Source: a virus
Taxonomy: Duplodnaviria; Heunggongvirae; Uroviricota; Caudoviricetes
IMG/VR virus record: IMGVR_UViG_2609459801_000010
Direction: 5' to 3' (one strand)
DNA length: 14,433 nt
Shown one piece after another: positions 1 through 13,795 of this stretch; the first letter of the stretch is position 1; each line of letters begins with the position of its first letter. Both the position numbers and the translations under genes were made by a program. A model generated the notes under the pieces. That model was not told the DNA's origin. It worked only from the letters and a program-made list of their open reading frames with translations, and searched no databases.

Positions 1-411
1 CTGATAATGTTCCGCGAACAGAATGCGCTCTGTGGCGGGGAAATACGCCCGCAGGCTTTCCTTGTTGCACCCGTTCCAGCGTCCGGACGGCTTCGCCCAG
101 ATAATATGGTTCAGCACACTGAAGCGTTCACGCATCATGATTTCGATATCAGATGCCAGGCGATGACCACAGAACAGGTAAAGACTTCCGGCAGGTTTCA
201 GCACCCGCCAGAACTGCGCCAGACACTGGTCCAGCCATTTCAGGTAATCATCGTCGCCCTTCCACTGGTTATCCCAGCCCTCAGGCTTCACTTTAAAGTA
301 CGGCGGGTCCGTGACTATCAGGTCAACAGAATTTTCGGGTAACGACCGGATAAATTCCAGGCAGTCGGCGTTGATTAACTCACAACTGGATATTTTTACA
401 GTATTAAGCAT
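1..411 (-). CDS. DNA methyltransferase (amino-MTase, N6-adenine/N4-cytosine class), N-terminal 137 codons; gene continues beyond window start
   Basis: Reverse-strand translation from ATG at 411-409 gives MLNTVKISSCELINADCLEFIRSLPENSVDLIVTDPPYFKVKPEGWDNQWKGDDDYLKWLDQCLAQFWRVLKPAGSLYLFCGH...; the DPPY tetrapeptide is the catalytic motif of amino-methyltransferases. Frame is open to position 1, so it is absent from the ORF track (no stop in window). Confidence 0.8.
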   Translation of the reverse strand, partial: MLNTVKISSCELINADCLEFIRSLPENSVDLIVTDPPYFKVKPEGWDNQWKGDDDYLKWLDQCLAQFWRVLKPAGSLYLFCGHRLASDIEIMMRERFSVLNHIIWAKPSGRWNGCNKESLRAYFPATERILFAEHYQ

Positions 412-545
412 GGATCATTAAGCCTGTCTCTGATAGGCTCATTCTGCTTTTGCGCAAAGCAGTGGGCCTGAGGTTTGCTTGTGAACCCAACGCATGAGCA
501 GATGGCTGGTGGGTGCCCCTAACACCCACCAGCCGCCCATTTACC

Positions 546-574
546 ACAAATAAAAAAGCCTTCACTGCGGAAGG
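546..574 (-). terminator. Putative intrinsic terminator after the small ORF
   Basis: Minus-strand hairpin GCCTTC-cgcagt-GAAGGC (plus 557-574) followed by TTTTTTATTTG; overlaps the last codons and stop of the 562-759 ORF. Confidence 0.5.
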
Positions 575-759
575 CGTCTGTAACAACCGAACTGATAGTC
601 TGCCAGACCCGCCATAACCAGCTGAGTCAGTATTAACTGGCAGCGTTCGCGTGAAAGGTAAGTATTCTGCGCAATCTCCCCGACTGTCGCCGGTTCGGTG
701 ACGCTTAATTCATTAAACACCACTCTGGCGGTTTCTGTCATATCCTGCTGTTTTAGCAT
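562..759 (-). CDS. Small hypothetical protein (65 aa), possible winged-helix regulator
   Basis: ATG at 759-757 preceded by AAGGGA-like SD; product MLKQQDMTETARVVFNELSVTEPATVGEIAQNTYLSRERCQLILTQLVMAGLADYQFGCYRRLPQ. The longer track ORF (to 846) lacks an RBS. Sits between the Q-like terminator and the methylase. Confidence 0.5.
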   Translation of the reverse strand: MLKQQDMTETARVVFNELSVTEPATVGEIAQNTYLSRERCQLILTQLVMAGLADYQFGCYRRLPQ

Positions 760-878
760 GTCTTTTTCCCTTTTCCGGTTAACGTGACACACCAATAACT
801 CTTGTCGAAAAAGCCAGCAAGCTGAAAGACAGGTATTCACCGCCACCAGCGCGTTTACTGTACTGACGCGATTTCAGT

Positions 879-904
879 CATAAAAAACCCGCCAGGCGGC
901 GGGG
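879..904 (-). terminator. tR'-like intrinsic terminator downstream of the Q-like gene
   Basis: Minus strand: CCCGCC-gcct-GGCGGG stem-loop (plus 888-903) immediately followed by TTTTTTAT; about 80 nt downstream of the Q-like stop. Confidence 0.6.
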
Positions 905-952
905 TGTAAAAAATCTTCTAACGTCAGGCATAAAACGCCTATCGTTAGAGCA

Positions 953-980
953 AATTTACCACAGATTCGGGAAAAATCAA
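953..980 (-). promoter_or_regulatory. PR'-like late promoter (-35 TTGATT, 16-nt spacer, extended -10 TGgTAAATT)
   Basis: Minus strand, starting 6 nt after the Q-like stop codon: TTGATT (980-975), TG at -15/-14, TAAATT (958-953). Gives a predicted ~60-70 nt transcript ending at the 879-904 terminator, like the lambda PR'/tR' unit. Confidence 0.45.
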
Positions 981-985
981 CAACA

Positions 986-1807
986 CTATCGCGTTACCCT
1001 CTTTAACTGCCGCTCCGCCCATGCCTCTTCAATGTCAAACCGAACCACCAACGTATCGTAAAAGCGTTTCACTGATTTTTTCCACGTATCAAGCGTGATA
1101 GCACTCGTCACTTTGCGTATGGCATTAAATGCCTCCGTTGATGGTAGTCTTTCACAGCCACGACCACCACAACGCTGGCAGTCTCTGATAACAGGCATAC
1201 CACGTTTTACCGACTCTTCACGATGAATGGCAACACCACGCCCACGGCAGTCTTTACAGGCAGTGGAAATCTCCCCCTTCCCTTTACATTCAGGACAAGA
1301 AACTTTCACCACCTCCCGAATTTTTTTCCATTCTTCCCAGTAAGACGGATACACACCTTTCGTACACTTTGCCCATACTGGCGGCTTGCCATCCGGATAC
1401 TGAACCTTGTTTGTAAAAACTTCGCCTTCAATAAATTTTTCCCCTCGGCAACAGGGGCACTGCTTTTTACTCGCTGCGCTGCGGGCATAATCCTCAAAAG
1501 CGTACGAAGCCATAATGCGCATCACTACCGGTTTTATTTCTGCCGGAAGTTTTCTCAACGCCGCCACACGATCGCACCGACTGAGTGCATAATCTGCCAG
1601 TAATTCTGTTGCCCGCGCCCTGTCATTCATACTGATGCCCATTTTCCCCAGGAACGCAGAAAACCCCATCTCAGCCCGATTCTGTGTCATGCCCTGCGCG
1701 GCCATCACATCAGTGATACTCAGCGCATCTTTCGACGTTGAGGCCGATGCATCAGTCAGGCCGGGGGATTTTGGGGAGTAGTATTTCGGTAAATCTTCCA
1801 GTTTCAT
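986..1807 (-). CDS. Antitermination protein Q-like (273 aa) with three DnaJ-type CxxCxGxG zinc-finger motifs
   Basis: ATG overlaps the rusA stop (ATGA at 1807-1804). Motifs CPECKGKG, CKDCRGRG, CQRCGGRG plus CPCCRGEK. Position directly after rusA and directly before a promoter-terminator unit matches lambdoid Q synteny. Family assignment relies on synteny and memory, not a search. Confidence 0.6.
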   Translation of the reverse strand: MKLEDLPKYYSPKSPGLTDASASTSKDALSITDVMAAQGMTQNRAEMGFSAFLGKMGISMNDRARATELLADYALSRCDRVAALRKLPAEIKPVVMRIMASYAFEDYARSAASKKQCPCCRGEKFIEGEVFTNKVQYPDGKPPVWAKCTKGVYPSYWEEWKKIREVVKVSCPECKGKGEISTACKDCRGRGVAIHREESVKRGMPVIRDCQRCGGRGCERLPSTEAFNAIRKVTSAITLDTWKKSVKRFYDTLVVRFDIEEAWAERQLKRVTR

Positions 1808-2184
1808 TTTTTGACCTGCTCTTCATGCATTATGGGGTAAATCTTCACCCCCAGACGTCCACCAGATACTGGCTGACCACGAACGATATTGATTTCATCA
1901 AACTGCTCATCGTCCATTAGCAACCCCGCATGCGTCAGCGCATCCAGCGGCGCTTTCAGAATATTGTCCAGATCACGGCGGCGCTTATCCGGTGGTTCTG
2001 CAATAATTTTTATTGCCAACCTTCCGGACAGGCTTAATTTCAGCCGCTGCTGGCGAACAATAAGCGCCACTGCCCGGCGATAACGCTCCCCGGCTTTTGA
2101 TACAAAATATGTGCTGCCACGACGACGCCAGTAAGTGTTCACCGTTGGCGGGTAAGGCAAAACAAATTCTATGCGTTCAGTCAT
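1804..2184 (-). CDS. rusA: Crossover junction endodeoxyribonuclease RusA (Holliday junction resolvase), 126 aa
   Basis: Product MTERIEFVLPYPPTVNTYWRRRG...PPDKRRRDLDNILKAPLDALTHAGLLMDDEQF resembles E. coli RusA (LPWPPSNNRYY..., [23 protein letters not shown]...). Start abuts the upstream stop (TAAATG). Confidence 0.9.
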   Translation of the reverse strand: MTERIEFVLPYPPTVNTYWRRRGSTYFVSKAGERYRRAVALIVRQQRLKLSLSGRLAIKIIAEPPDKRRRDLDNILKAPLDALTHAGLLMDDEQFDEINIVRGQPVSGGRLGVKIYPIMHEEQVKK

Positions 2185-3243
2185 TTATGCTTTCCACTTC
2201 AGAACACCCGAATTTCTCGCGTGCATTAAAAAACGAATCAGCAACAACAGCTGGCTGCCGTGTTTTTCTTCAAAATCTTTTACCCCGGCGTGTAGTTCGC
2301 TATGGCATTTACGGCACAGCGGAATAACAAACAAATCATCAGCCTTTGTTCCCATCCCTCCCAGTCCATGACCAATGATGTGATGCGGATCATCTGCCTG
2401 ATTGCCACACGTCATGCATTTCTGCGTTTTTACCCAGCGCGTGTATACAGGCATCTCTTCCCGTTGTGATTTCTGGCGCTGGAGATACTGAGCCGGTGAC
2501 TCGGGATCAACGGCAATGCTGACCACCGTCTTTTCCTGTGGTGGGTTCTGTTGCTGGTGGGCGTGAGGCAGCGGCGCAAGATTTTTTGTGCGCTGTTTCA
2601 GTATGCTGGTGGCGGTCTGCTCTCCCGGTATGATGTCGCTTTCACTGTACACAGAGCGAATTTTTTCCGCACGCAACCCCAGCGAACGACGTAATACCGC
2701 TTCCGGTAGCGCGTCCGCCACCTGATTGCGGACCGCCCACCAGGATAATTCAGCCAGAGATAATTCACGCTCCTGCGTACCGCTTATTGCGTGACCGATG
2801 ACGTCAATCATCCATGCTGACAGGTTTTGATGAGCAAGTTGCCCGAGTGATTCGGATGTCTGGTCACGCAGCTGGTTGTCGCAGTGCCAGCACAACACCA
2901 TTGCGCCGGTACCATAACGGTGAATGACGGTTTCGCTGTGATGATAATCGCCGTGTGGCCACTGGCAGGATTTAATATGGCGCAACAGCCAGTCAGACAA
3001 TGCACCAGCACCACCAGCAGCACGAATCACCCGTGCGTTACTGAAAAACGGCAGCAATGTTTTGTCTTCCACCAGCGGCTGGCGAGCGGCAGGAACGACC
3101 CCGGACGGCAGATTACGCATGCTTTTTGGTTCCGGCTCCACCAGTATTCTGCCGTTATGGAATGCTGACATTGATTCACGGCCTGGCTTAACGATAACCA
3201 GACCGAGTTCCGGTACCAGAACAGATCGAAGTAATACCCGCAC
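2185..3243 (-). CDS. DUF968/YdfU-like nin-region protein (352 aa) with C-terminal HNH-like Cys/His motif
   Basis: GTG start at 3243-3241 preceded by GGAGGTAAT; size and position (just upstream of rusA and Q) match YdfU-type proteins. C-terminus CMTCGNQADDPHHIIGHGLGG...LCRKCH resembles a CxxC...HH...CxxCH HNH signature. Confidence 0.65.
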   Translation of the reverse strand: MRVLLRSVLVPELGLVIVKPGRESMSAFHNGRILVEPEPKSMRNLPSGVVPAARQPLVEDKTLLPFFSNARVIRAAGGAGALSDWLLRHIKSCQWPHGDYHHSETVIHRYGTGAMVLCWHCDNQLRDQTSESLGQLAHQNLSAWMIDVIGHAISGTQERELSLAELSWWAVRNQVADALPEAVLRRSLGLRAEKIRSVYSESDIIPGEQTATSILKQRTKNLAPLPHAHQQQNPPQEKTVVSIAVDPESPAQYLQRQKSQREEMPVYTRWVKTQKCMTCGNQADDPHHIIGHGLGGMGTKADDLFVIPLCRKCHSELHAGVKDFEEKHGSQLLLLIRFLMHARNSGVLKWKA

Positions 3244-3244
3244 A

Positions 3245-3523
3245 TTACCTCCAGATCCGTTGCTGGAATGTGCGGGACGGACGCGCTGGCCGTTCTGAGT
3301 AAGGGAGCCTGACGGAGATTATCCAGTGACGGTAGTCGAGGCTAAGGGCTTTTTTAACCTCGCATCCGCGCCCGCGGTAACACTGAATGAGCCATTCAGC
3401 CTGTTCTTCGGTGCAGGGGTCGTGCTGATACCAGTCAGATTTGAATGCATGAGAACGCCGCCCGTGCCTGCTGGCAGGGGCGGCAGAGTTATCCGAATTG
3501 TAAAATTTGGTATCGTGCGCCAT
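3245..3523 (-). CDS. Hypothetical phage protein (92 aa)
   Basis: ATG at 3523-3521; stop TAA overlaps the GTG start of the downstream gene, suggesting coupling. No recognisable motif; weak SD. Confidence 0.45.
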   Translation of the reverse strand: MAHDTKFYNSDNSAAPASRHGRRSHAFKSDWYQHDPCTEEQAEWLIQCYRGRGCEVKKALSLDYRHWIISVRLPYSERPARPSRTFQQRIWR

Positions 3524-3790
3524 CTGTTTTCTCTGCTGGCGCAGCAGGTGCCAGTTGTTCAGGCTGACGTATGAAGTATAAATAAACTGGCTCCAGTGTA
3601 AAGCCCCACCTTAATGGAATAAAAACCAAACAACAGATTGCTGGGATAAAAATACAACGCTTATTATTAAAAGCGGTTAGATAAATTAAATTTTAATGTT
3701 ATGCAAATCTGCCAGATTAGCATAATATTTCATTTGAAAACCGCTGAAATAACAATCTTATCGGGATTAATCATATTAAGGTGAGTAAAT

Positions 3791-3877
3791 ATGGAAAACA
3801 ACAAATCTGCACATTACGCTCCTTTTTTATCTGTAATACTTTTTGTATTTTGTTGTGTATGGGCGGTATTTTTATAA
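3791..3877 (+). CDS. Candidate small hydrophobic peptide (28 aa), possible membrane peptide or type I toxin-like ORF
   Basis: ATG at 3791 preceded by AAGGTGAG at good spacing; product MENNKSAHYAPFLSVILFVFCCVWAVFL has a polar N-terminus then one hydrophobic helix; a terminator hairpin follows 20 nt downstream. Below the 60-aa track threshold. Confidence 0.25.
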   Translation: MENNKSAHYAPFLSVILFVFCCVWAVFL

Positions 3878-3892
3878 AACACACCCACAAAT

Positions 3893-3927
3893 AAATCAAA
3901 CCCGCTACAGCGGGTTTGATTTATATA
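3893..3927. terminator. Bidirectional intrinsic terminator
   Basis: Perfect inverted repeat AAATCAAACCCGC-taca-GCGGGTTTGATTT; the GC stem CCCGC/GCGGG is followed by a U-rich run in both orientations. Lies just after the peptidase stop (3932) and after the small plus-strand ORF. Confidence 0.6.
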
Positions 3928-3931
3928 GTTG

Positions 3932-6196
3932 TTATACGGAAACTGGCACACGAGCAGGCAATGGATAGTGAGCCCAGTTATTAGCATTTAAAGCTCTTAC
4001 GCCATCAGCATAAACTTGTGTGTTTCCATCTAATGATTTTAAAGTTACTACAATAGTTACAGGTAAAGGCTCCATTAAGGCCGGTTCATTCGCTCTCAAC
4101 GTTGTTTTAGCTTGAAGAGCCCAGTTACCCGAAGTAATTCCTTTATTAAATGCCTTGCGATGAATTTTTACTGGTGACCACTTTCCACCATGCTCAATTT
4201 GAGCTCTCTCATATCCAGATTGACCGTTTTCTCCTTCCATAGGTACTTTTCCTTTTATAGTATTATTCTCAATTAAGCCAAAACTTAGCTCTACGTTCGC
4301 GCGAACATATTCACTGCCGGCATTAGGGTTCAGTGGTGGTGCATATGCAGCAGTAATTACAATCTCACCTTTAAATTTTCCATTTTGAATAAGTGCCGAT
4401 GGTATGGGATAGTTTTCCTTTCTCCACCTCACCCCAGGAACCAAGAATGTTTGGAAAATCAGAGTAAACCTATCATCACTATCATATAAGGTCTCAATAA
4501 CCTCATTAGGAATTCCCGCTCCCAAATAGCGTCTTTCACTTGGCGAGTAATCAGGAGAAGATAATTGAGCGGAATGAATTAATAATGCTTTAATCAATGA
4601 TGGTGAAACATTAAAGTCTGAATTAGTGGCTATTCTCTGCCATGTATGCGCAGCTAAACTTGCCACAATTGGAGCAGCAAAACTAGTACCAAAATTAGAG
4701 CAAAGCCTATTATCTGGCCCTACGACCTTTAAACTGCTTGCTCCTACATTCCAAGGTCTATGAACCCCACCGCCAGCATGGATTATATCTGGCTTTGGAG
4801 TAAATACAGGCCCAGGGCCACGACGAGTATATGGTGTCGGTGTTCCAATTTCACTTAAAGCATCATTAGCTTCCATATGAGAAACTGAACCAACTGTTAG
4901 TGCTCGGACTGACTCTCCAGGAGAGGAAATTAAATCAGCACCTCCAAGCGGATCAGGATTTGGCCATGTACGTATAGGTTCATCTACATAATTACCTGCA
5001 GCAACTACAAACAAAATACCAAATTTATCGCTGAGCCGATCTAACTCCATCGCAAAATCACTAAACATCTGCTCATTACATGGTCCGCCTCCCAAAGATA
5101 AATTCCAGACTTTTATATCTGGTCTTTTATTTACAGCATCTGCTAGCCTCAGAATTAAATCTGATATATAAGATCCATTTTCATCTAAAGCACAAACATC
5201 ATGGATTTTAGATTTTGTATCAGGAATCCATGGATGATTGTCATTTAAAAAATGAGCGCCTGATATCAATGAAGACACCATAGTCCCATGTTCATAACTC
5301 GTATCAGGAGGAATTACGTATGTTTCCCTACTCACTACCCAAGGAGTAATTGTTGCCGCGATGGGGCTTACCCCAGTGTCAAATACAGCAACAATGGGTA
5401 ATTCTTCTGATGGTACGGGAAAGCTATTTGTTTCAATGCCAACAGAATCACTTACACTAACCGGGAATGCTGAATATTTTGGTTCTGGAATTAACGTTCT
5501 TATACCCGGGTAATCAATGAGAATGTCTAATATATATCTATCATTTGGGGATAAATCCATTATCCTTAATAAGGGAAGACCACATTTTGGTCTAATCTCA
5601 TCATATTTAACTCCGTGTTGTTCTAATATAGAAATAACGTTTTCATAGTTGTTGTAAGTTGCATCTTCACCTGTGTACTCAAATAGTCGTACAAGGATGT
5701 TTGATGATTCAAACAAACCATCAGTGCCTCCTGGAACCTTCCTATTCTCATCCCAAGGTTCAATGCGCTCAATCGCGCTTAGGTTAGCCAAAATCGCTTT
5801 AATATTCCGATGTAAAATGACTGACTCTAATACGTCAAAACAGCCGGCATGAGCAGCAACCAACATTTCATCTATTTTGGCATGACCGGCATTTTGCAAT
5901 CCAGCCTCTTGAGCAATTTTGTTCGGCCTATGCGTTTTGGCTATTCCCTGGTCTCTTAATTTGAAAACCAAAGTACCCAAGCTTCCAGGGTACTCTGAAA
6001 GTTTGGATTCTAAATAATGTTTACTGGTTGTTAAATTTCTTACTAGCCCTTGTCTATATTCGGCTGTTACATCAACCAATACCTTTGCCCCACCGCCAGC
6101 GTTTACTATTGCACCCAAGTCACTACTGGAAAAAGGGATTCTTAACATTGGGTTTGTAACTTTTGCGTTACTAAACTGTGTACCCCTTCTGCTCAT
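3932..6196 (-). CDS. Subtilisin-like serine peptidase (peptidase S8 family), 754 aa, no signal peptide; IetS-like
   Basis: Catalytic triad in canonical subtilase order: Asp in VAVFDTGVS, His in YEHGTMVSS, oxyanion Asn in VVAAGNY, Ser in NFGTSFAAPIVAS. Polar N-terminus with no hydrophobic signal sequence. Strong SD (AAGGAG/AGGAG) before the ATG at 6196. About 270 aa N-terminal and 200 aa C-terminal to the catalytic core have no motif I recognise. Confidence 0.85.
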   Translation of the reverse strand: MSRRGTQFSNAKVTNPMLRIPFSSSDLGAIVNAGGGAKVLVDVTAEYRQGLVRNLTTSKHYLESKLSEYPGSLGTLVFKLRDQGIAKTHRPNKIAQEAGLQNAGHAKIDEMLVAAHAGCFDVLESVILHRNIKAILANLSAIERIEPWDENRKVPGGTDGLFESSNILVRLFEYTGEDATYNNYENVISILEQHGVKYDEIRPKCGLPLLRIMDLSPNDRYILDILIDYPGIRTLIPEPKYSAFPVSVSDSVGIETNSFPVPSEELPIVAVFDTGVSPIAATITPWVVSRETYVIPPDTSYEHGTMVSSLISGAHFLNDNHPWIPDTKSKIHDVCALDENGSYISDLILRLADAVNKRPDIKVWNLSLGGGPCNEQMFSDFAMELDRLSDKFGILFVVAAGNYVDEPIRTWPNPDPLGGADLISSPGESVRALTVGSVSHMEANDALSEIGTPTPYTRRGPGPVFTPKPDIIHAGGGVHRPWNVGASSLKVVGPDNRLCSNFGTSFAAPIVASLAAHTWQRIATNSDFNVSPSLIKALLIHSAQLSSPDYSPSERRYLGAGIPNEVIETLYDSDDRFTLIFQTFLVPGVRWRKENYPIPSALIQNGKFKGEIVITAAYAPPLNPNAGSEYVRANVELSFGLIENNTIKGKVPMEGENGQSGYERAQIEHGGKWSPVKIHRKAFNKGITSGNWALQAKTTLRANEPALMEPLPVTIVVTLKSLDGNTQVYADGVRALNANNWAHYPLPARVPVSV

Positions 6197-7325
6197 ATGC
6201 TCCTGACTCCTTCAGAATGTTTGAAATTACTCTTGATGTAAGTTTGTACAAATTAGCAAGAACTCTGATAGAAAATAATTTTTTATCTTTAGAACGTAAC
6301 CAACGAATTTCATCTTCGTAAGTGCTTAAATTTACACCTTCCATAAGCGATTGCGCAAGATACAAACGCCTATACAATTTATGGTGATTTATCACACTTG
6401 CACCTTCAATAACTGCATCCCTACGTGCATCCAAGCTCACCTGTTCAATTATTGCTCCGGATAATCCCTCCGATTTTCTTGATAAATCACTTAAATCTAG
6501 ATCGCTACATATCATATTCTTTAAACGATTTTTCCAAATTAACTCTCTCTGATGTATGTCAGGCAGAGGCATTGGAATTCTGAAGCTAAATCGCCTCCAG
6601 ATTGCAGGATCCAGAAGTTGCTCATGGTTAGTTGAGGCAATAATTACCGTATCCTCTGATGCCGCATCCATATTCTGCAATAGTGAAATGACAACTCGCT
6701 GAAGCTCACCTATATCTCTCTCATTACCTCTTGCTCCAGCTAAAGCATCAAATTCGTCTAAAAAAAGCACTGATGGCCTCTGCATTACATAATCGAAAAC
6801 CTGTCTAAGATTTTTGCTGGTTTGTCCCAATAAACTACTAATCAAAGTATCGCAACGCACTGTAAGAAGTGGAAAATCTAAGCGGGTAGCGATGTACTTA
6901 GATAACATAGTCTTACCTGTTCCTGGCTTTCCATACACGAGCATACGACTCGGCAATGCTGCATCAGCTTTAACAAACTCATCATAACGTTGAACATTAG
7001 TGATAAACTCTTCAACACGGGTACTGATTGCTGCAGGCAGAAAAATCTCTGAACTGTCTAATTTAGGATAACTGACATCAACAGTGTTGAGTCGACTATC
7101 AATATCTACCGGTAATGAGCCCAGAGATATCCCACCTCCAGCCCTTTGAGCTCCTGCCAACGCCTGGGGAGCTCTAAGCAACCTTTCTCTTATCATTCTG
7201 GCTTGCTTGACCTCCCCTTTTTGTTCGAGCTTATCTGCCAGCAACCCAGCATAATTACTAGCCATCGAAGCATTTGCCTTTGTTGCACCTTCAATGATTT
7301 TTAACACTTCTGATAAATAATCCAT
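6171..7325 (-). CDS. AAA+ ATPase (classical AAA clade), 384 aa; IetA-like
   Basis: Walker A LVYGKPGTGKTML, Walker B SVLFLDEFDAL, second region of homology IIASTNHEQLLDPAIWRRFSF. GGGAG SD before the ATG at 7325. 3' end overlaps the peptidase start by 26 nt, implying co-translation. Confidence 0.85.
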   Translation of the reverse strand: MDYLSEVLKIIEGATKANASMASNYAGLLADKLEQKGEVKQARMIRERLLRAPQALAGAQRAGGGISLGSLPVDIDSRLNTVDVSYPKLDSSEIFLPAAISTRVEEFITNVQRYDEFVKADAALPSRMLVYGKPGTGKTMLSKYIATRLDFPLLTVRCDTLISSLLGQTSKNLRQVFDYVMQRPSVLFLDEFDALAGARGNERDIGELQRVVISLLQNMDAASEDTVIIASTNHEQLLDPAIWRRFSFRIPMPLPDIHQRELIWKNRLKNMICSDLDLSDLSRKSEGLSGAIIEQVSLDARRDAVIEGASVINHHKLYRRLYLAQSLMEGVNLSTYEDEIRWLRSKDKKLFSIRVLANLYKLTSRVISNILKESGAYEQKGYTV

Positions 7326-7518
7326 TCAACACTCCCACAACAAAAAGCCACAGCAATCAAAAAATGAGCACACAGAATCAAAATACTCTCTAATCGTAAC
7401 GCATTTTGAGATTTTTGATACGTTTTTTTGGGATTATGTAACGCCAAATGGTCATTTTGTGTCAGAAAAATAAATCTTAGTACCGAGAATATGTAGCTTC
7501 CATCCTTCATCGTTCTAT

Positions 7519-7950
7519 TCATCCCTGATCTCCAAGCCTCTCTCGAAAACCATTCTGATAAAACGCCAGCACACGCTGCATAACTTCGCTCTTCCGGCAC
7601 TCGCGACAGATTATGTTCAGACGCCTGTCGTAGCGGCGTATTTCTCCGTCTGGTAATGACCAGATAAGGTCCGGATCAACCACAGATGGTTTCTTCACCT
7701 TTGCCCTGGATAGTTTTTTGCGGGCATTTTGCCAGTCCTTACGAGCCTGTTCAGACGGGAATAACCCGTAACCAGAGTTGTATACATCGCCACTGGCAAC
7801 CAGCTCTCTGGCGAGAACGCTCATCAGATATCTTGTCGCACCTGTCTTGGCTTCCAGTTGCCGTAACGTCTCGCGCCCACTCCGGCGTACTAGCTCAACA
7901 ACCTGCCCTTTAATTTTTTCCCGCTCTTCTTGTGTAAATACTTTTGCCAT
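7519..7950 (-). CDS. Hypothetical phage protein (143 aa)
   Basis: ATG at 7950-7948 with GGAGG SD 6 nt upstream (preferred over the TTG at 7965 that starts the track ORF). Product MAKVFTQEEREKIKGQVVELVRRSGRETLRQL...; no recognised motif. Confidence 0.5.
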   Translation of the reverse strand: MAKVFTQEEREKIKGQVVELVRRSGRETLRQLEAKTGATRYLMSVLARELVASGDVYNSGYGLFPSEQARKDWQNARKKLSRAKVKKPSVVDPDLIWSLPDGEIRRYDRRLNIICRECRKSEVMQRVLAFYQNGFRERLGDQG

Positions 7951-7965
7951 AAGCGCCTCCGGCAA

Positions 7966-8727
7966 TCACTTTTCCGATACAACACGGCGGGAAGAATCAG
8001 TAATCTGTCGAACAATATCCCGGTGCTTGTTCAGCTCCCGCAGCGCGGCGCAGACTCGCTCCCACTTCTGGACATGATTTTTCGCCCGACGCAGTTCGCG
8101 GTTTGCCATATGCAGTGATGGTAAAACCAGGTCATCCGCTCGCGTTTCAGTAAACGATGGCAGCGACTGCACAATGTCCGCCACAGTTTCTGTTTTAATA
8201 TCTTCCTGTGTTGCAGCCTCCTGTACTGGTAACGCAACACCTGCGGTATGAGGAAAGGCCTTACCATCAGTTTCCGCTACCGATGCTGCTTTCGGCTCTG
8301 CTGGTAAATTATCGCCCGGTATGCAGTAACGAAATTTACCGCCCTGATTTACGCGAATCAGACGACCTTTGCTGATTGCCATTGCCAGCGTTGAAGCCAC
8401 TTTGCGTGATGTGGTACCAAACAATGTAGCCAGCTCATCAGCCATTTGTGGTCCTCGTTGTTCAATCGTCGCGGTTAAATCGCACTCTGAGATTTTCGCT
8501 ACTGTTGCTGTGGTGATTTCTTCCGGCAGTTCTGCCTGCGCTGGCTGTTCCTGCTGAACGTTGTTATCAGCCACACGCCAGGTGTACGCGCTTTTATCAA
8601 CAAAACCAGCCTTTTTCAGTTCCCATAGTTCGTTCAGCACTTCTTCACGACTGATATCAAGTCGCGCAGCAAGTTCTATGGATGTGGCTTTTCCCATTGC
8701 TTTCAGTGCGTCAAAAACAGTCTCCAT
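7966..8727 (-). CDS. Hypothetical phage protein (253 aa) with two winged-helix-like segments
   Basis: ATG at 8727-8725 with GGGAGA upstream (preferred over the longer ORF to 8778, which would overlap the DnaC-like gene). [44 protein letters not shown] and [32 protein letters not shown] look like wHTH units. Confidence 0.5.
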
Positions 8728-8749
8728 TAAATTTTTCTCCCGGTAAAAA

Positions 8750-9496
8750 TTACTTCGCAATTCCTGGCTGGACGACATTCGGACGCCAGCTCTCCCAGTT
8801 AAAATTCCCCCATAGCCCGCCGTTCATGGTCATGCGATCCATAATCCGCTCGCCGAGCAATGTTTTCATGGCCTCATAGTTCAGGTTTGTCAGCATCCCC
8901 ACGCTGCGCATCGACGCTGTCCGGCGATCAACAATCTGGTGCAGTACCACCTGCTCGTTTTTCGTCTCGCGCTGAATGCCAATTTCATCAAGAACCAGCA
9001 GATCCACTTCGCACAGTTCCCGCAAAAATTTTTCGCCTGACTGCCCATCGTCATAGCTGGCGTGGAGGGCACTCATAACATCAGCCACGGTAACCACAAT
9101 CACTGTCTGACCGTCTTTCAGCAGGCGATTCCCGATAGCTGCTGCTAAGTGGTTCTTCCCGGTACCAGGTTTTCCGCTAAACGCGAAATTTGTGCATCCG
9201 GTCATCAGTTCATCAGCGATAGATTTCGCCTGGCTCAACGCGTATCGCTGACCGTCGTTCTGCACCTGGTAATTCGCAAACGAGCATTTACGGTGCAACG
9301 GCTGGATGCCTGAGCGATTCAGAATTTTTTCCACCCGCAACTGGCGATTCAGGCGGTTGATCTCCTCGCTACGTTTCTGGCCTTCAGCAAGTTGCCACTC
9401 GTGCCACTCCGCTACCGTTCTGAATGGGGCGGTTACATGTGGCGGAGCCAGTCTTCGGATACGTTCAAGAACGCCGCCTGCCGCAATGTTTTTCAT
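8750..9496 (-). CDS. DnaC-like replicative helicase loader (248 aa)
   Basis: [39 protein letters not shown] is nearly identical in pattern to the E. coli DnaC Walker A region; Walker B LLVLDEIG. Directly downstream of the initiator gene. Confidence 0.9.
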
Positions 9497-9502
9497 GACA
9501 CG

Positions 9503-10465
9503 TCACCCCCTGAATCCCGGCGGTATTTCAGTGTCCGGTTCAGAAATGTGATTCACGCAACGCTGCGCAGGCAAACGCCCCAGGCGGATAACCAGTTCAT
9601 CCCATTTTTCCCGGAGTTTTGCCGGACTCATGATGTTTTTTACCCAGAACGAATCCCGCTGGAGACGCCCAAACATTTCACAAATTTGTCTGTGAGTTCT
9701 GCCATCCAGCATCCGCATTGTGCGAACGTCATTGGCCCATGCTGTCCAGTTGGGTTCTTTCGGTCTAGTGATCTCGCCATCATAGCTGGCCGCCTGCTCG
9801 TAAAGACTCACGATTCGTCCCCAGATCCACTGTGCGCACACCAAATCTTCCTGACTTCCCCACTGGCGTTTTTTCGCACTGAACACAACCGCGTCAGGGT
9901 GTCGGGTTAAAAAATCCTGTTCAGCCGTCTGCGGGTCCGGTTGCGAAGCGTCCGGACAAGAAGATCTTTTATCTGACGGATCAGGTTTTAATACTGACGG
10001 ATCGGGGTCAATCATCGGCCCCCTAATCGGCAGTTTTTTATCAACAGTTGATCCATCAAAATTTGACGGGTCAACCGTTGAGGGGTCAATATTTGACGGG
10101 TCAACTGTTAACGGGTCATTTTTTGCCGGGCTAATTTTTCTTTTCGGTTTATATGACTCACGCGCCGCCGCCGCAGCTGCTTCGAGTTTTTCCACATTAA
10201 GCCGATAGATATTGCTTACATTACGCCCACCGACCTTACGCTCTTCCTTCGTCAGCCAGCCCTCTTTCGCCAGTTCTGCAATAGCCGATTTCACTGTGGA
10301 TTCACTTCTTGCACCGATCTGACGCCGGATAGTTTCAATGGCAGGCCATGACACGCCCTCGTCATTGCTGTAGTCTGCAAGACGGGCCATAACCGCCACC
10401 CTGGATAAGATCATGCCGGTGAAGGCGCACCCTTCCCAGACAAGACCATGAAGCTTGCTGCTCAT
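9503..10465 (-). CDS. Phage replication initiator (O-like) with N-terminal HTH and DnaT-like C-terminal domain (320 aa from ATG at 10465)
   Basis: C-terminus ...NHISEPDTEIPPGFRG matches the DnaT C-terminus (...VSEPDSQIPPGFRG). N-terminal HTH-like segment; central low-complexity DPSxVD repeats encoded by the iterons. ATG at 10465 (after a GGGGG run) preferred over the GTG at 10480. Confidence 0.8.
   Translation of the reverse strand: MSSKLHGLVWEGCAFTGMILSRVAVMARLADYSNDEGVSWPAIETIRRQIGARSESTVKSAIAELAKEGWLTKEERKVGGRNVSNIYRLNVEKLEAAAAAARESYKPKRKISPAKNDPLTVDPSNIDPSTVDPSNFDGSTVDKKLPIRGPMIDPDPSVLKPDPSDKRSSCPDASQPDPQTAEQDFLTRHPDAVVFSAKKRQWGSQEDLVCAQWIWGRIVSLYEQAASYDGEITRPKEPNWTAWANDVRTMRMLDGRTHRQICEMFGRLQRDSFWVKNIMSPAKLREKWDELVIRLGRLPAQRCVNHISEPDTEIPPGFRG
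10048..10118. repeat. Origin-like iterons: five copies of TTGAcGGGTCAA-like 12-mers at strict 15-bp phasing inside the initiator gene
   Basis: Copies at 10048 (ttgatccatcaa), 10063 (ttgacgggtcaa), 10078 (ttgaggggtcaa), 10093 (ttgacgggtcaa), 10108 (ttaacgggtca); each is an inverted repeat TTGAC-nn-GTCAA; AT-rich stretch at 10119-10150. Same logic as the lambda ori inside gene O. Confidence 0.6.
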
Positions 10466-10487
10466 AAACCCCCCGAACACCGTGCTT

Positions 10488-10913
10488 TTAGTGCATCACC
10501 ACAGCATTCCCTGCCGGGCCGCCGCGATTCATCTGGTCATACAAAACAACCGCTGACGCAACAAAATCATCGACATCCTTCCCCAGCCGATCCCTCCGTT
10601 CGACGATCTCACGGTAATATTCAGAACTGTGGCTGCGCATACGGGCCACCAGCAAAGGCGGCATCGCCTTTTCGATCGCCGGTAACAGAGCCTGCATTTT
10701 TTCAACAGCATCAGGGGTGTCTTTATCCAGCCAACGGAAAATTTTCTGGGTATTACGGGCCAGGGCTTCCGGATGGCTGTCGTCATACAGTTCCGGGAAC
10801 GTCATTCCCAGCTCGAAATACGCTTTGGTAATTTTCGCAGCCGGCACTTTTTCGCCGTCCGGATGCGCCCAGACATTCATCGCCATGCGGATGTGTTCAT
10901 GCTTGATTTTCAT
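10488..10913 (-). CDS. YdaT-like protein (141 aa), likely CII-type regulator
   Basis: ATG at 10913 with AGGAG SD; begins MKIKHEHI; lies between the cro-like and replication genes as in the Rac ydaS-ydaT-ydaU-ydaV arrangement. Assigned from synteny and memory. Confidence 0.55.
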   Translation of the reverse strand: MKIKHEHIRMAMNVWAHPDGEKVPAAKITKAYFELGMTFPELYDDSHPEALARNTQKIFRWLDKDTPDAVEKMQALLPAIEKAMPPLLVARMRSHSSEYYREIVERRDRLGKDVDDFVASAVVLYDQMNRGGPAGNAVVMH

Positions 10914-11178
10914 GAATCAAGCTCCTAGAAAGTGGTTGTGTTAACGTTTTGGTATCTTCCAGCTCGGGCCAAATATTCATCCAATCAAAAGGCCTTAGTT
11001 GCTGACGTGTAACTTCACCATTACTGGCTCGCTCAATAAGGACACATAACGATGCCCCTAACACTTGACCTTTACTCAATGCCTTTCTTAGATAACCGAT
11101 GCTGGTACCACACTCGCATGCAAACATACGCTGTTCATCTGACGAAAGAGAATTGAGAAATATTCTTAATTCTTCCAT
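10897..11178 (-). CDS. Cro-like HTH regulator (YdaS family-like), 93 aa
   Basis: ATG at 11178 with strong SD TAAGGAG 5 nt upstream; HTH-like CGTSIGYLRKALSKGQ and ...NGEVTRQQLRPFDW; divergent from the repressor gene across an operator region. Confidence 0.65.
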   Translation of the reverse strand: MEELRIFLNSLSSDEQRMFACECGTSIGYLRKALSKGQVLGASLCVLIERASNGEVTRQQLRPFDWMNIWPELEDTKTLTQPLSRSLIHENQA

Positions 11179-11203
11179 AGCTACTCCTTAGTAAACACAG
11201 CAA

Positions 11204-11272
11204 AGAATACCCACAGGTAAACAAAAGTCAATACCCACAGGTTGTTTACCTTGCGGTAATCGCATCTATTAT
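11204..11272. promoter_or_regulatory. Divergent promoter/operator region (OR-like) between cro-like and repressor genes
   Basis: Two copies of ATACCCACAGGT (11207-11219, 11231-11243), 24 bp apart. On the minus strand they overlap a -35 TTGACT (11231-11226) and a -10 TATTCT (11209-11204) for the cro-like gene. On the plus strand a -10-like TATTAT (11267-11272) ends 6 nt before the repressor ATG. Confidence 0.5.
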
Positions 11273-11278
11273 TTACCT

Positions 11279-11698
11279 ATGGACAAATATGAATTTAGAC
11301 GACAGCAACTCATCAAAATTCGTGATGAGAAATGCGATGGTAAAGCGGTTAACGTGGCCAGAAAGATCGGGCGCGAGCCTTCTTATGTATCAAGAATGTT
11401 GTACCCAGAGGGGAAAAAGGGAAAAAAACGGATCGCTGATGATATGGTGGAGATTATCGAAGAGTCCTTTGGGTTACCCCGGGGATGGATGGATGGTATC
11501 GTTTCATCATCAACGAACACAGCCTCCAGTTATGAAACAAGGGTTCTAACGCCACGACAACGTATTTTTTTAGATCTCTTAGACGAACTGCCAGAAAGTG
11601 AAGCGGATAAATTATTAAAAACTCTTGAAGAGAAAAAACAGTATTACAATATGATCTACGAAGAAATCCGTAAAAAGAAAGCACAAAACGCATCATAG
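11279..11698 (+). CDS. Prophage repressor-like HTH protein (139 aa), RacR/DicA-position
   Basis: Divergent from the cro-like gene; HTH-like AVNVARKIGREPSYVSRML; no SD upstream and a -10 hexamer just before the ATG suggests a leaderless mRNA, as for lambda cI from PRM. Confidence 0.65.
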   Translation: MDKYEFRRQQLIKIRDEKCDGKAVNVARKIGREPSYVSRMLYPEGKKGKKRIADDMVEIIEESFGLPRGWMDGIVSSSTNTASSYETRVLTPRQRIFLDLLDELPESEADKLLKTLEEKKQYYNMIYEEIRKKKAQNAS

Positions 11699-11739
11699 CT
11701 CACCAAACAACTAGTCACCAGTTAAGACACCGCAAAAAT

Positions 11740-11778
11740 TTACCCATGGGTATTTACTTTTTAAATACCTATGGGTAT
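11740..11778. promoter_or_regulatory. OL-like operator pair downstream of the repressor gene
   Basis: Perfect palindrome TACCCATGGGTA (11741-11752) and near-palindrome ATACCTATGGGTAT (11765-11778), 25 bp apart; same TACCCAnnGGTA core as the OR-like copies; positioned to control plus-strand transcription of the ydfA-DicF-dicB operon. Confidence 0.45.
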
Positions 11779-11963
11779 CCTTCTTTTCATACCAACCCAC
11801 CCCGCCCCACAGAATGCAGGGCAATACTTCGAGTTACCAGGCAGTGGTCAGGGGTTAAGTAGCCAGCCCGAGGCGTAAGAACATGACGGCAGGGTTCAAC
11901 TTTAATAACTATGCAGCAGGTTTTTGTTCCGCTACCCCGGCGTTAAGGGGAAATGAGGTCAAC

Positions 11964-12116
11964 ATGGATATGCTCAATCTTGGCAACAACGAATCTCTGG
12001 TATGTGGCGTGTTCCCCAACCAGGACGGCACGTTTACCGCGATGACGTATACCAGAAGCAAAACGTTTAAAACTGAAGCTGGCGCGCGTCGCTGGTTAAC
12101 CAGAAACACTGACTGA
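11964..12116 (+). CDS. ydfA: YdfA-like small protein (50 aa)
   Basis: ATG at 11964 with GAGG SD 6 nt upstream; product MDMLNLGNNESLVCGVFPNQDGTFTAMTYTRSKTFKTEAGARRWLTRNTD; first gene after the operators, as ydfA is in the Qin dicB operon. Identity recalled, not searched. Confidence 0.5.
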   Translation: MDMLNLGNNESLVCGVFPNQDGTFTAMTYTRSKTFKTEAGARRWLTRNTD

Positions 12117-12127
12117 TGAGGTTGACG

Positions 12128-12529
12128 ATGGAATTTAAAGATTTACCAGTACCATTCCAGGAAATGGCATCGAATGTGGTTCGCTCTCAACTGGCGACTC
12201 TTGACCTGAGTACCGTAGAAAAAGAAACCATCGATACTATATCCGGTAACGTGCGTCGTGCCTTTATAGGTCTGTATGAAGAGAAGCGCCTATTCGGCGG
12301 ACAGAATTCGCCTGAAAACAAGAATCAAGCAAATGATGAGAAGCTGAAACACATTATCGCCTTACTTTTGGAAGACGCAAAACGTCTACAGCAACTGGAA
12401 CCAAATGCAGGCACAGAGGCCCGCATTTGGATTGCCATGAAATCACTCAAATGTGAAAGCAGTGATTATTTCAAAACAACAATTAAAACTACTCAACTTT
12501 CGGGAGAGCTACTGAAGAAATTGCCATAA
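12128..12529 (+). CDS. Hypothetical protein (133 aa)
   Basis: ATG at 12128 with GAGG SD 6 nt upstream (an alternative ATG at 12116 overlaps the upstream stop but lacks an SD). Lys/Glu-rich product MEFKDLPVPFQEMASNVVRSQLATLDLSTVEKETIDTISGNVRRAF...; no recognised motif. Confidence 0.5.
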   Translation: MEFKDLPVPFQEMASNVVRSQLATLDLSTVEKETIDTISGNVRRAFIGLYEEKRLFGGQNSPENKNQANDEKLKHIIALLLEDAKRLQQLEPNAGTEARIWIAMKSLKCESSDYFKTTIKTTQLSGELLKKLP

Positions 12530-12767
12530 GAGCATGGTCTTTCTCTTGTTCTGCAAGATGAGCATTAATACCTGGTATGGTTTTTTCAAATTTATCTATC
12601 TGTTGAATAACAACTTCGCGGTATACGTTTGTTTTTGTACCACCAAGCGCAGCCGTTAATGCAGAAAGCATATTTAGTATCATATCAGTGCGATATGAAA
12701 GAATCCTGATAGCTTCATCTTGTTTTTCAATAATAGATTGCAGGGCCTCAATTTGCTTTTTATCCAT
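12489..12767 (-). CDS. Hypothetical protein (92 aa), convergent with and overlapping the 3' end of the 12128-12529 gene
   Basis: ATG at 12767 with very strong SD AGGAGG 5 nt upstream; product MDKKQIEALQSIIEKQDEAIRILSYRTDMILNMLSALTAALGG... (coiled-coil-like then a hydrophobic stretch). No plus-strand ORF of 60 aa or more covers 12530-12806. Confidence 0.45.
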   Translation of the reverse strand: MDKKQIEALQSIIEKQDEAIRILSYRTDMILNMLSALTAALGGTKTNVYREVVIQQIDKFEKTIPGINAHLAEQEKDHALMAISSVALPKVE

Positions 12768-13703: not shown

Positions 13704-13795
13704 AACAGTTCCGTAATAAATATCCGGTTTCATTCTTATATGCCAGCAATGGCAGGGATTTGTTCACCCTTAAATCTGTAATGAGGTAAAACAAA

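What the first reader, a model, noticed from the sequence alone, without database searches (positions are those of the whole stretch)
3932..6196. Subtilase appears cytoplasmic and carries large uncharacterised N- and C-terminal domains
Most subtilases are secreted, made as pre-pro-enzymes. This one starts MSRRGTQFSNAKVTNPMLRIPFSSSDLGAIVNAGGG, with no hydrophobic signal peptide. The catalytic Asp lies about 270 residues in and some 200 residues follow the catalytic Ser. An intracellular protease coupled to an ATPase suggests regulated proteolysis, for example cleaving a host or phage target on infection, with the extra domains as candidate sensor or autoinhibitory modules.
Basis: seen in the sequence. 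Interest (0 to 1): 0.55.

Follow-up and report, generated by a model that had tools for sequence, protein, structure and literature searches.

The report
Known IetAS anti-phage protease–ATPase pair

Summary
The ORF is real. It lies on the minus strand at 3932-6196 and encodes 754 aa, with no signal peptide or TM segment. The catalytic residues D273/H303/N402/S505 are invariant, about 270 residues precede the Asp, and 249 follow the Ser.

It is not an unknown. It scores 1041 bits against the NCBIfam equivalog "S8 family anti-phage peptidase IteS" (cutoff 900) and E=3e-300 full-length against PADLOC IetS. The overlapping upstream gene (6171-7325) passes the IteA/IetA equivalog. The same locus, at >=99% identity, is annotated iteS/iteA in 78 of 5426 complete E. 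coli genomes, and it sits in a Rac-like lambdoid prophage.

IetAS is published as:
- a protease-toxin/ATPase-antitoxin pair (pTiC58, SGI1, mycoplasmas);
- an anti-phage system (Gao 2020);
- an abortive-infection system triggered by a phage protein.

Its molecular mechanism was still called unknown in 2026.

New here, at fold level:
- The N-terminal region is two ferredoxin-like units, one docked where subtilisin propeptides sit.
- The C-terminal region is a beta-sandwich and is the most conserved part of the protein.
- The N-terminal module occurs only in IetS proteins.

The parts
6171..7325 (-). ietA (iteA): 384-aa classical-clade AAA+ ATPase, the antitoxin/regulator of the pair
   Evidence: NCBIfam NF042959 IteA_antiphage scores 526.6 bits against a cutoff of 510. 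PADLOC IetA PDLC02196 gives E=8.9e-143. Pfam AAA gives E=2.6e-30. Walker A is at 132-139 and Walker B at 186-191. The closest solved relatives are p97/CDC48 D2 (E~1e-53), with Arg fingers R244/R245 aligned. The pore-loop position reads S-L-L-G where p97 D2 has M-W-F-G, and this is invariant in 4 IetA sequences.
3932..6196 (-). ietS (iteS): 754-aa cytoplasmic S8 (subtilisin-like) peptidase, the toxin/effector
   Evidence: NCBIfam NF042956 IteS_antiphage scores 1041 bits against a cutoff of 900, covering residues 15-752. PADLOC IetS PDLC02197 gives E=3.3e-300 over residues 12-753. It is 100% identical to a RefSeq cluster named 'S8 family anti-phage peptidase IteS [Escherichia coli]' with 1093 members. 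The AF2 model has pLDDT 82.3 and pTM 0.87.
5981..6196 (-). IetS residues 1-72: conserved N-terminal tail (N15, P16, F22, D26, L27), a Gly-rich loop (33-36) and a long helix (45-68)
   Evidence: Invariant columns are listed. Residues 16-30 form strands with pLDDT ~83 in the full-length model. They are unstructured (pLDDT 52-55) when the N-terminal region is modelled alone. The tail therefore packs on the catalytic or C-terminal part.
5747..5980 (-). IetS residues 73-150: first beta-alpha-beta-beta-alpha-beta (ferredoxin-like) unit, highly conserved
5462..5746 (-). IetS residues 151-245: second ferredoxin-like unit (variable), ending in the conserved P-E-P-x-Y motif (E238 nearly invariant, P239 invariant)
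5396..5461 (-). IetS residues 246-267: poorly conserved, low-confidence linker between the pro-like region and the catalytic domain
   Evidence: Mean identity is 26% with a minimum of 5%. The pLDDT dips to 59-72.
4517..5395 (-). IetS residues 268-560: S8 catalytic domain with D273, H303, N402, S505
3935..4516 (-). IetS residues 561-754: C-terminal all-beta sandwich (strands 576-720) plus a terminal helix (728-739); the best-conserved region of the protein
6171..6212 (-). ietA/ietS junction: 26-nt overlap of the ietA 3' end with the ietS start, and GGAG-type ribosome-binding motifs at 6200-6212 inside ietA
   Evidence: Sequence is and ORF coordinates. The same overlapping AAA-then-S8 arrangement occurs in Pseudomonas, Ralstonia and a betaproteobacterium.
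3891..3924 (.). Perfect 15-bp hairpin directly downstream of the ietS stop codon; likely the operon terminator
   Evidence: Terminator-like site found.
3524..7555 (.). Low-GC cargo island (~38-41% GC against ~50-55% in the flanks) that carries ietAS within the prophage
   Evidence: Composition profile is. Related Rac-like phages lacking ietAS align only from window ~7555 onward and carry other genes in this slot.

Best explanation
This is ietS (RefSeq name iteS), the S8-peptidase component of the two-gene IetAS system. Its partner ietA, a AAA+ ATPase, lies immediately upstream. The pair is carried as a low-GC cargo ('moron') in a Rac-like lambdoid prophage of E. coli.

Most likely mechanism:
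1. IetS is made in the cytoplasm as a potentially lethal protease.
2. It is held inactive in uninfected cells by two things. One is its own uncleaved, propeptide-like N-terminal region, which is an inference from the model. The other is ATP-dependent action of IetA as antitoxin, which is shown in the literature for homologues.
3. On infection, a phage product disturbs this restraint. I propose it does so either by acting on IetA or by binding the variable second N-terminal unit of IetS.
4. IetS then cleaves essential cellular and/or phage proteins, and the infected cell dies before phage release (abortive infection).

Shown here: identity, architecture, intact active sites, lack of export signals, conserved synteny, and the fold classes of the flanking domains.
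Taken from papers: toxin/antitoxin roles, the need for protease activity, the abortive-infection phenotype, and a phage-protein trigger in a Bacillus homologue.
Inferred only: autoinhibition by the pro-like unit, the sensor role of the variable unit, and the targets.
For: Identity:
- The IteS equivalog scores 1041 bits against a cutoff of 900, and the IteA equivalog 526.6 against 510.
- PADLOC IetS gives 3.3e-300 and IetA 8.9e-143, both full length.
- The locus is >=99% identical in 78 complete E. coli genomes, where PGAP annotates it iteS/iteA.
- The protein is 100% identical to a named RefSeq cluster.

Cytoplasmic and active:
- No signal peptide, TM segment, lipobox or Tat motif.
- The catalytic tetrad is invariant.
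- Walker A/B and Arg fingers are present in IetA.

Operon:
- A 26-nt overlap joins the two genes.
- The AAA-then-S8 overlap is conserved in three other genera with unrelated neighbours.

Pro-like unit:
- The model has pLDDT 82, pTM 0.87.
- PCSK9 with prodomain aligns 298 residues against 223 without.
- Pro-subtilisin E aligns 312 against 224-231 for mature subtilases.
- ProN-Tk-SP aligns 369 against 281.

Family-specific module: an N-terminal profile finds only 290 representatives among 1.84 billion proteins. In the 150 listed, the match starts at or near the protein's N-terminus. Many of these are ~720-790 aa and the rest are shorter, presumably fragments.

Literature:
- Toxin/antitoxin roles, the requirement for protease activity, and the failure to construct a mutated ietA (PMC13069673).
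- Abortive infection, and SPbeta yosG as a trigger of a B. cereus ietAS (10.1101/2022.08.27.505566).
- An E. coli ietAS that is often prophage-borne and synergises with Zorya II (10.1101/2022.08.21.504612).
- Homologous toxin-antitoxin pairs in mycoplasmas and SGI1 (PMC8562856, PMC5006074).
Against: - No experiment exists on this allele. The cloned E. coli system (ECOR52) gave only limited protection on its own (10.1101/2022.08.21.504612). I did not check whether it is this allele.
- The anti-phage mechanism and targets were explicitly 'unknown' in 2026 (PMC13069673).
- The ferredoxin-like fold is generic: ACT domains score slightly higher than I9 propeptides.
- Pfam I9 and P-domain models do not match.
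- The IetA pore loop lacks the canonical aromatic residue (LLG), so how it acts on IetS is unclear.
Confidence: 0.85

Rival explanations
1. IetA and IetS form a two-component ATP-dependent degradation machine of the Lon/FtsH/ClpXP/PAN-proteasome type. In this reading the ATPase unfolds substrates and feeds them to the protease, so IetA activates IetS rather than restraining it.
For: IetA belongs to the classical AAA clade. Its nearest relatives are unfoldases that work with or as proteases: PAN, CDC48 and FtsH (NCBIfam hits at 1e-35 to 5e-29; p97 at E~1e-53). The two genes are translationally coupled.
Against: Homologous IetA proteins neutralise IetS toxicity, and IetS alone is toxic (PMC8562856, PMC5006074, PMC13069673). 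Pore loop 1 reads L-L-G instead of aromatic-hydrophobic-Gly, invariantly in 4 IetA sequences. Subtilases are open monomeric endopeptidases, not self-compartmentalised chambers; that is established knowledge of family S8.
Confidence: 0.08
2. In this prophage the pair acts mainly as an addiction (post-segregational killing) module that stabilises the prophage, and has little or no role in defence against other phages.
For: IetAS was first described as a plasmid stability and incompatibility toxin-antitoxin system on pTiC58, and as a maintenance system of SGI1 (cited in PMC13069673; PMC5006074). The E. coli ECOR52 system alone gave limited anti-phage activity (10.1101/2022.08.21.504612). The locus sits inside a mobile element.
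Against: The family protects against phages in heterologous hosts, with a requirement for protease activity (Gao 2020, as cited in PMC13069673). It shows phage-triggered toxicity (10.1101/2022.08.27.505566). It sits in a variable prophage cargo slot, which, from general knowledge of prophage morons, is typical of defence cargo. The two roles are not mutually exclusive.
Confidence: 0.12
3. It is an ordinary secreted pre-pro-subtilase. The N-terminal region would be a cleaved propeptide and the C-terminal domain a P-domain or binding domain for extracellular substrates.
For: One N-terminal unit superposes with I9-type propeptides. The best full-length structural matches are secreted enzymes with C-terminal beta-barrel domains, KP-43 and Tk-SP.
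Against: There is no signal peptide, TM segment, lipobox or Tat motif. Pfam I9 and P_proprotein models do not match. Furin aligns no more residues than a catalytic domain alone would (293 of 466). The gene is obligately paired with a cytoplasmic AAA+ ATPase. Homologues kill cells from inside (PMC8562856).
Confidence: 0.01

Closest known systems
IetAS / IteAS anti-phage system (Gao et al. 2020; DefenseFinder/PADLOC 'ietAS'; NCBIfam NF042956/NF042959)
   Same: Everything testable in silico matches. These are the AAA+ gene upstream of and overlapping the S8 peptidase gene, full-length HMM matches above the curated equivalog cutoffs, intact catalytic and ATPase motifs, and location on a mobile element.
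   Different: Nothing of substance differs. This is the common E. coli prophage allele, present at >=99% identity in 78 of 5426 complete genomes. Its own phage spectrum has not been measured here.
IetA/IetS toxin-antitoxin pair of Agrobacterium Ti plasmid pTiC58 (Yamamoto et al. 2009), and SgiAT (S026/S025) of Salmonella Genomic Island 1
   Same: The gene pair and order are the same, with protease as toxin and AAA ATPase as antitoxin, carried on a mobile element (PMC13069673, PMC5006074).
   Different: Those pairs were studied for plasmid or island maintenance, not phage defence. They are more distant in sequence: SGI1 S025 is only 36% identical to pTiC58 IetS (PMC5006074). I did not align them to this protein.
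Mycoplasma AAA-ATPase/subtilisin-like TA132/133 module
   Same: A 757-aa S8 toxin and a 353-aa AAA antitoxin, of nearly the same sizes as here. The toxin acts intracellularly and causes filamentation in E. coli (PMC8562856).
   Different: It is chromosomal in wall-less bacteria, has no defence role demonstrated, and its sequence relationship to this allele was not measured here.
ietHAS (Liu-DS4), a three-gene variant with an SNF2-type helicase
   Same: It shares the IetA and IetS components and requires protease activity (PMC13069673).
   Different: It needs an extra helicase, IetH. No helicase gene adjoins this locus; the neighbours are a DUF977/LygF gene and a small hypothetical gene.
Pro-subtilisins and proprotein convertases with an I9-type propeptide (pro-subtilisin E, PCSK9, ProN-Tk-SP), and subtilases with C-terminal beta-barrel domains (KP-43, Tk-SP)
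   Different: - Those enzymes are exported, whereas IetS has no signal peptide.
- IetS has two ferredoxin-like units plus a conserved N-terminal tail and helix.
- IetS has no detectable sequence similarity to I9 or P-domains.
- Whether the IetS pro-like region is ever cleaved is unknown.

Membership tests
IetAS (IteAS) defence / toxin-antitoxin system | S8 peptidase matching the IetS family model over its full length, above the curated cutoff | tested here: met
   NF042956 scores 1041.1 bits against a cutoff of 900, covering residues 15-752 of 754. PADLOC PDLC02197 gives E=3.3e-300 over residues 12-753.
IetAS (IteAS) defence / toxin-antitoxin system | AAA+ ATPase matching the IetA family model above the curated cutoff | tested here: met
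   NF042959 scores 526.6 bits against a cutoff of 510, so it passes with a small margin. PADLOC PDLC02196 gives E=8.9e-143 over residues 1-374.
IetAS (IteAS) defence / toxin-antitoxin system | Two-gene operon with ietA immediately upstream of ietS on the same strand | tested here: met
   The genes are at 6171-7325 (-) and 3932-6196 (-), with a 26-nt overlap. The same arrangement occurs in Pseudomonas, Ralstonia and a betaproteobacterium.
IetAS (IteAS) defence / toxin-antitoxin system | Intact Asp/His/Ser triad (protease activity is required for defence) and intact Walker motifs | tested here: met
   D273, H303, N402 and S505 are invariant. Walker A is GKPGTGKT and Walker B is VLFLDE.
IetAS (IteAS) defence / toxin-antitoxin system | IetS is toxic, IetA neutralises it, and the pair reduces phage propagation | not testable with these tools
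   Known only from papers on homologues (PMC13069673, PMC8562856, 10.1101/2022.08.27.505566, 10.1101/2022.08.21.504612).
Secreted pre-pro-subtilases (S8A with signal peptide and I9 propeptide) | N-terminal signal peptide | tested here: not met
   No hydrophobic h-region (maximum 8-10-residue KD window 1.15-1.48 in the first 70 residues), no lipobox and no Tat motif. This is a heuristic only, because no SignalP was available.
Secreted pre-pro-subtilases (S8A with signal peptide and I9 propeptide) | I9 propeptide domain | tested here: inconclusive
Kexin/furin-type proprotein convertases | P-domain (PF01483) packed against the catalytic domain | tested here: not met
   There is no Pfam P_proprotein match. 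Furin 4omc_A aligns only 293 of 466 residues, no more than other catalytic-domain matches.
AAA+ protease machines (Lon, FtsH, ClpXP, PAN-proteasome) | Aromatic-hydrophobic-Gly pore loop 1 in the ATPase for substrate threading | tested here: not met
   IetA has S-L-L-G aligned to p97 D2 M-W-F-G, invariant in 4 IetA sequences.
AAA+ protease machines (Lon, FtsH, ClpXP, PAN-proteasome) | Self-compartmentalised protease chamber that docks on the ATPase ring | not tested
   No complex prediction was possible with the tools. Subtilases are not known to form such chambers (general knowledge).

The most novel reading that the evidence does not exclude
IetS is a never-secreted, zymogen-like subtilase. 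Its uncleaved I9-like second N-terminal unit and the conserved PEPxY tail plug the active site. The fast-evolving surface of that unit is the phage sensor. IetA, an AAA+ ring with a non-aromatic pore loop, repeatedly re-seats or holds this plug through the conserved N-terminal tail of IetS. If so, secretory-protease propeptide chemistry would have been repurposed as an immune switch. None of this is published for IetAS as far as the searched library shows, and my evidence neither proves nor excludes it.
Probability: 0.25. Interest if true: 0.5.

Novelty: already known. Interest (0 to 1): 0.18.

Why it matters
As a genome-scan finding it matters little. The locus is a textbook hit to a named defence system, and RefSeq already labels the identical protein.

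What keeps some interest is that the IetAS mechanism is unsolved. No structure of IetS turned up in the PDB searches, and a 2026 paper still calls the anti-phage mechanism unknown.

The fold-level picture obtained here gives concrete, testable hypotheses for how an intracellular subtilase is kept harmless and then unleashed:
- two ferredoxin-like N-terminal units, one in the propeptide position and one of them fast-evolving;
- a very conserved C-terminal beta-sandwich;
- an N-terminal tail that is ordered only in the whole protein;
- an IetA pore loop without an aromatic residue.

Tried and rejected
- **Plus-strand reading of 3932-6196:** it is full of stops; the gene is on the minus strand.
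- **Tat export via the N-terminal 'SRR':** rejected. There is no F-L-K or hydrophobic stretch after it, and the RR is not conserved.
- **Pfam on the isolated N-terminal (1-265) and C-terminal (547-754) regions at E<=10:** no hits.
- **The two N-terminal units as an internal sequence repeat:** hhalign probability <1%. They share a fold, not detectable sequence.
- **Word-index homology search with the C-terminal domain alone:** it returned only IetS fragments, with no new architectures.
- **N-terminal profile against 1.84 billion representatives:** only IetS-type proteins or fragments, and no other domain context.
- **Sequence search of the PDB for IetS:** only weak hits to the catalytic domains of KP-43 and SubHal, so no IetS structure was found.
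- **Plasmid collection:** no near-identical copy.
- **Gao 2020 and Yamamoto 2009:** these could not be opened in the held library. Their content is cited second-hand from papers that cite them.
- **A literature search for a structural or mechanistic IetAS paper:** it found none.
- **Model coordinates:** these are not exposed, so I could not inspect contacts between the pro-like unit and the active site.
Full report
**1. The observation**

The coordinates 3932-6196 contain a single long ORF, but on the minus strand. The plus-strand translation is riddled with stops.

Pfam sees one domain, Peptidase_S8, at residues 268-544 (E=5.6e-26). The subtilase signature motifs are present once each: D273 in DTG, H303 in HGT, the oxyanion Asn402 in AAGN, and S505 in GTSFAAP. 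All four are invariant across 40 homologues down to 50% identity. So 272 residues precede the catalytic Asp, and 249 (not ~200) follow the Ser.

A hydropathy scan finds no signal-peptide-like or transmembrane segment:
- The best 19-residue Kyte-Doolittle window in the whole protein is 1.48, and it is the strand leading to Asp273.
- The best 8-10-residue window in the first 70 residues is 1.15-1.48.
- There is no lipobox.
- The 'SRR' at the N-terminus is neither followed by a Tat-type motif or hydrophobic core nor conserved in homologues.

These are heuristics, because no dedicated predictor was available. The isolated flanks (1-265 and 547-754) hit no Pfam model even at E<=10. The neighbouring ATPase is real. 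It lies at 6171-7325 (-), is 384 aa, matches Pfam AAA at E=2.6e-30, has Walker A and B motifs, and overlaps the peptidase start by 26 nt.

**2. What it is**

The protein is not an orphan.
- It matches the PADLOC IetS model PDLC02197 end to end (E=3.3e-300). The upstream protein matches IetA (E=8.9e-143).
- Against NCBIfam, both pass curated equivalog cutoffs. 'S8 family anti-phage peptidase IteS' scores 1041 bits against 900, and 'anti-phage ATPase IteA' scores 526.6 against 510.
- The protein is 100% identical to a RefSeq cluster of 1093 member sequences carrying that name.
- Megablast of the 4.1-kb island finds it at >=99% identity and full length in 78 of 5426 complete E. coli genomes, where PGAP annotates iteS and iteA.
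- It is also in one deposited phage genome, vB_EcoS-683R6, but in no plasmid of PLSDB.

**3. Context**

The window is 99.97% identical over positions 1-13977 to a prophage of E. coli strain 102651. The annotated neighbours are a Rac-type lambdoid early region:
- on the ietA side: a DicA-like repressor, a YdaT-family protein, replication proteins (HTH protein, ydaV), DUF1627/ydaW and DUF977/lygF;
- then iteA-iteS;
- on the ietS side: a small hypothetical gene, DUF968, RusA and the antiterminator Q.

ietAS lies in a ~4-kb island of 38-41% GC, between flanks of ~50-55%. Related phages that lack ietAS align only from window position ~7555, and they carry unrelated small genes in the same slot. It is therefore exchangeable prophage cargo. 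A perfect 15-bp hairpin follows the ietS stop codon.

In Pseudomonas aeruginosa, Ralstonia pseudosolanacearum and a betaproteobacterium, 51-56% identical IetS genes are likewise preceded by an overlapping AAA gene. The surrounding genes are unrelated in each case. This is a self-contained two-gene mobile module.

**4. What is published**

I could not open Yamamoto 2009 or Gao 2020. What follows comes from papers that cite them.
[quoted passage not shown] Protease activity is needed for defence, and a mutated ietA could not be constructed. [quoted passage not shown]
- Homologous pairs are functional toxin-antitoxin systems in mycoplasmas, with a 757-aa toxin and a 353-aa antitoxin. The toxin causes filamentation in E. 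coli (PMC8562856). The same holds on SGI1 (PMC5006074).
- A B. cereus ietAS behaves as an abortive-infection system whose toxicity is switched on by the SPbeta protein YosG (10.1101/2022.08.27.505566).
- An E. coli ietAS from ECOR52 gave limited protection alone but synergised with Zorya II. The authors attribute its mutual exclusion with Zorya II in E. coli genomes to one of the two systems residing in an integrated element such as a prophage (10.1101/2022.08.21.504612).
- No IetS structure appears among the PDB sequence hits, and no mechanistic paper turned up.

**5. The flanking domains**

An AlphaFold2 model built on a 40-sequence alignment is confident (pLDDT 82.3, pTM 0.87). From the N-terminus it shows:
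- a conserved tail (residues 16-30), a Gly loop and a long helix (45-68);
- two successive beta-alpha-beta-beta-alpha-beta units (74-147 and 167-237);
- a poorly predicted linker (246-267);
- the S8 core;
- an all-beta domain (576-720) and a final helix.

| With propeptide | Residues aligned | Without propeptide | Residues aligned |
|---|---|---|---|
| PCSK9 (5vla_A) | 298 | PCSK9 catalytic (2w2m_A) | 223 |
| Pro-subtilisin E (3whi_B) | 312 | Thermitase / proteinase K | 224-231 |
| ProN-Tk-SP (3afg_B) | 369 | Tk-SP (9ues_B) | 281 |

One ferredoxin-like unit therefore sits where I9 propeptides dock.

Two segments are ordered only in the full-length model: the N-terminal tail (16-30) and residues 240-242, which follow the conserved P-E-P-x-Y motif. 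This fits a tail packing on the body of the enzyme and a propeptide-like C-terminal strand lying on the catalytic domain. I could not inspect coordinates.

Conservation is uneven:

| Region (residues) | Mean identity to homologues |
|---|---|
| C-terminal domain (561-725) | 69% |
| Catalytic domain (268-560) | 64% |
| First N-terminal unit (73-150) | 64% |
| Second N-terminal unit (151-245) | 38% |
| Linker (246-267) | 26% |

A profile of the N-terminal 262 residues, searched against 1.84 billion representative proteins, finds only 290 proteins. In the 150 listed, the match starts at or near the protein's N-terminus. Many of them are ~720-790 aa and the rest are shorter, presumably fragments. 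The module is specific to IetS.

**6. IetA**

IetA is a classical-clade AAA+ protein. Its nearest solved relatives are p97/CDC48 D2 (E~1e-53), and the family-model hits are PAN and FtsH. The Arg-finger positions are kept (R244, R245). The pore-loop-1 position reads S-L-L-G where p97 D2 has M-W-F-G and D1 has K-L-A-G, and this is invariant in four IetA proteins of 58-61% identity. The N-terminal ~100 residues and a C-terminal segment (~330-375) are also strongly conserved; I did not analyse them further.

**7. Mechanism**

I commit to the following.
1. IetS is an intracellular protease toxin. (Identity is shown here; toxicity comes from the literature.)
2. It is restrained by IetA in an ATP-dependent way. 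(Literature: a mutated ietA could not be constructed.)
3. It is also restrained by an uncleaved, propeptide-like N-terminal region that occupies the canonical inhibitory position. (Inferred.)
4. A phage product relieves the restraint. (Shown for one Bacillus homologue.) The variable second N-terminal unit is the best candidate for a specificity or sensor surface. (Inference.)
5. Proteolysis of unknown targets then aborts the infection. (Abortive-infection phenotype from the literature.)

Rivals:
- An ATP-dependent degradation machine in which IetA activates IetS. This is disfavoured by the antitoxin genetics and the non-aromatic pore loop.
- A pure prophage-addiction role. This is possible and not exclusive.
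- A secreted pre-pro-enzyme. This is rejected for lack of any export signal.

**8. Verdict**

The refutation clause ('ordinary pro-domain/P-domain folds') is half met at fold level. That supports the 'autoinhibitory module' reading rather than secretion. The feature is already known: a named, curated family, identical to an annotated RefSeq protein. Interest as a discovery is low. The residual value lies in the structural hypotheses for a system whose mechanism is still open.

Noticed in passing
window 13978-14433: Identity to the reference prophage (E. coli 102651) stops at 13977. An IS1 element begins there: the ORF at 13993-14370 (-) matches the IS1 family transposase model at 4.4e-37. In the reference, the corresponding point lies about 180 nt inside a 3'-5' exoribonuclease-domain (RecE-like) gene, so this strain's prophage appears to have an IS1 insertion in that gene.
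   Followed up: partly
window 3524-7555; L005 2150-4812: The slot between lygF/DUF977 and the DUF968/RusA/Q region is a variable cargo site. Phage vB_EcoS-666R9 carries unrelated small genes there instead of ietAS (a DNA-binding protein, a 'cytoplasmic protein' and hypotheticals). The last ~12 codons of the DUF977 gene differ at the island border.
   Followed up: partly
window 7519-7965 (-): The gene directly upstream of ietA (DUF977/LygF in RefSeq and GenBank) matches PHROG 142, 'Ren-like exclusion protein', at 2.6e-46. Two candidate exclusion or defence functions therefore sit side by side.
   Followed up: no
window 6171-7325 (-), IetA residues 1-100 and ~330-375: Besides the AAA core, IetA has a very strongly conserved N-terminal region (LSEVLKI..G..KANASMASNYAGLLADKLE...RERL.RAP) and a conserved C-terminal segment (LST.E.EI.WLR...FS.R.L..LY...). 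Neither has a Pfam assignment. Pore loop 1 is an invariant S-L-L-G without an aromatic residue.
   Followed up: partly
window 6107-6151 (-), IetS residues 16-30: The conserved N-terminal peptide NP(F/M)x(H/R)IPFSxxDL is predicted as ordered strands (pLDDT ~83) only when the whole protein is modelled. It is disordered in the isolated N-terminal region. This suggests it packs on the catalytic or C-terminal domain and might be a handle for IetA.
   Followed up: no
window 10488-11698: The prophage immunity region contains a YdaT-family 'toxin' gene (10488-10913, -), a small Cro-like regulator (10897-11178, -) and a divergent gene (11279-11698, +). The divergent gene has a weak C-terminal match to the DicA repressor model (1.9e-5, below cutoff).
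   Followed up: no
L002 3605-5041: The gene call for the Pseudomonas IetA homologue is 478 aa, about 90 residues longer at the N-terminus than the other three IetA proteins. The extension aligns to nothing and is probably a mis-called start.
   Followed up: no
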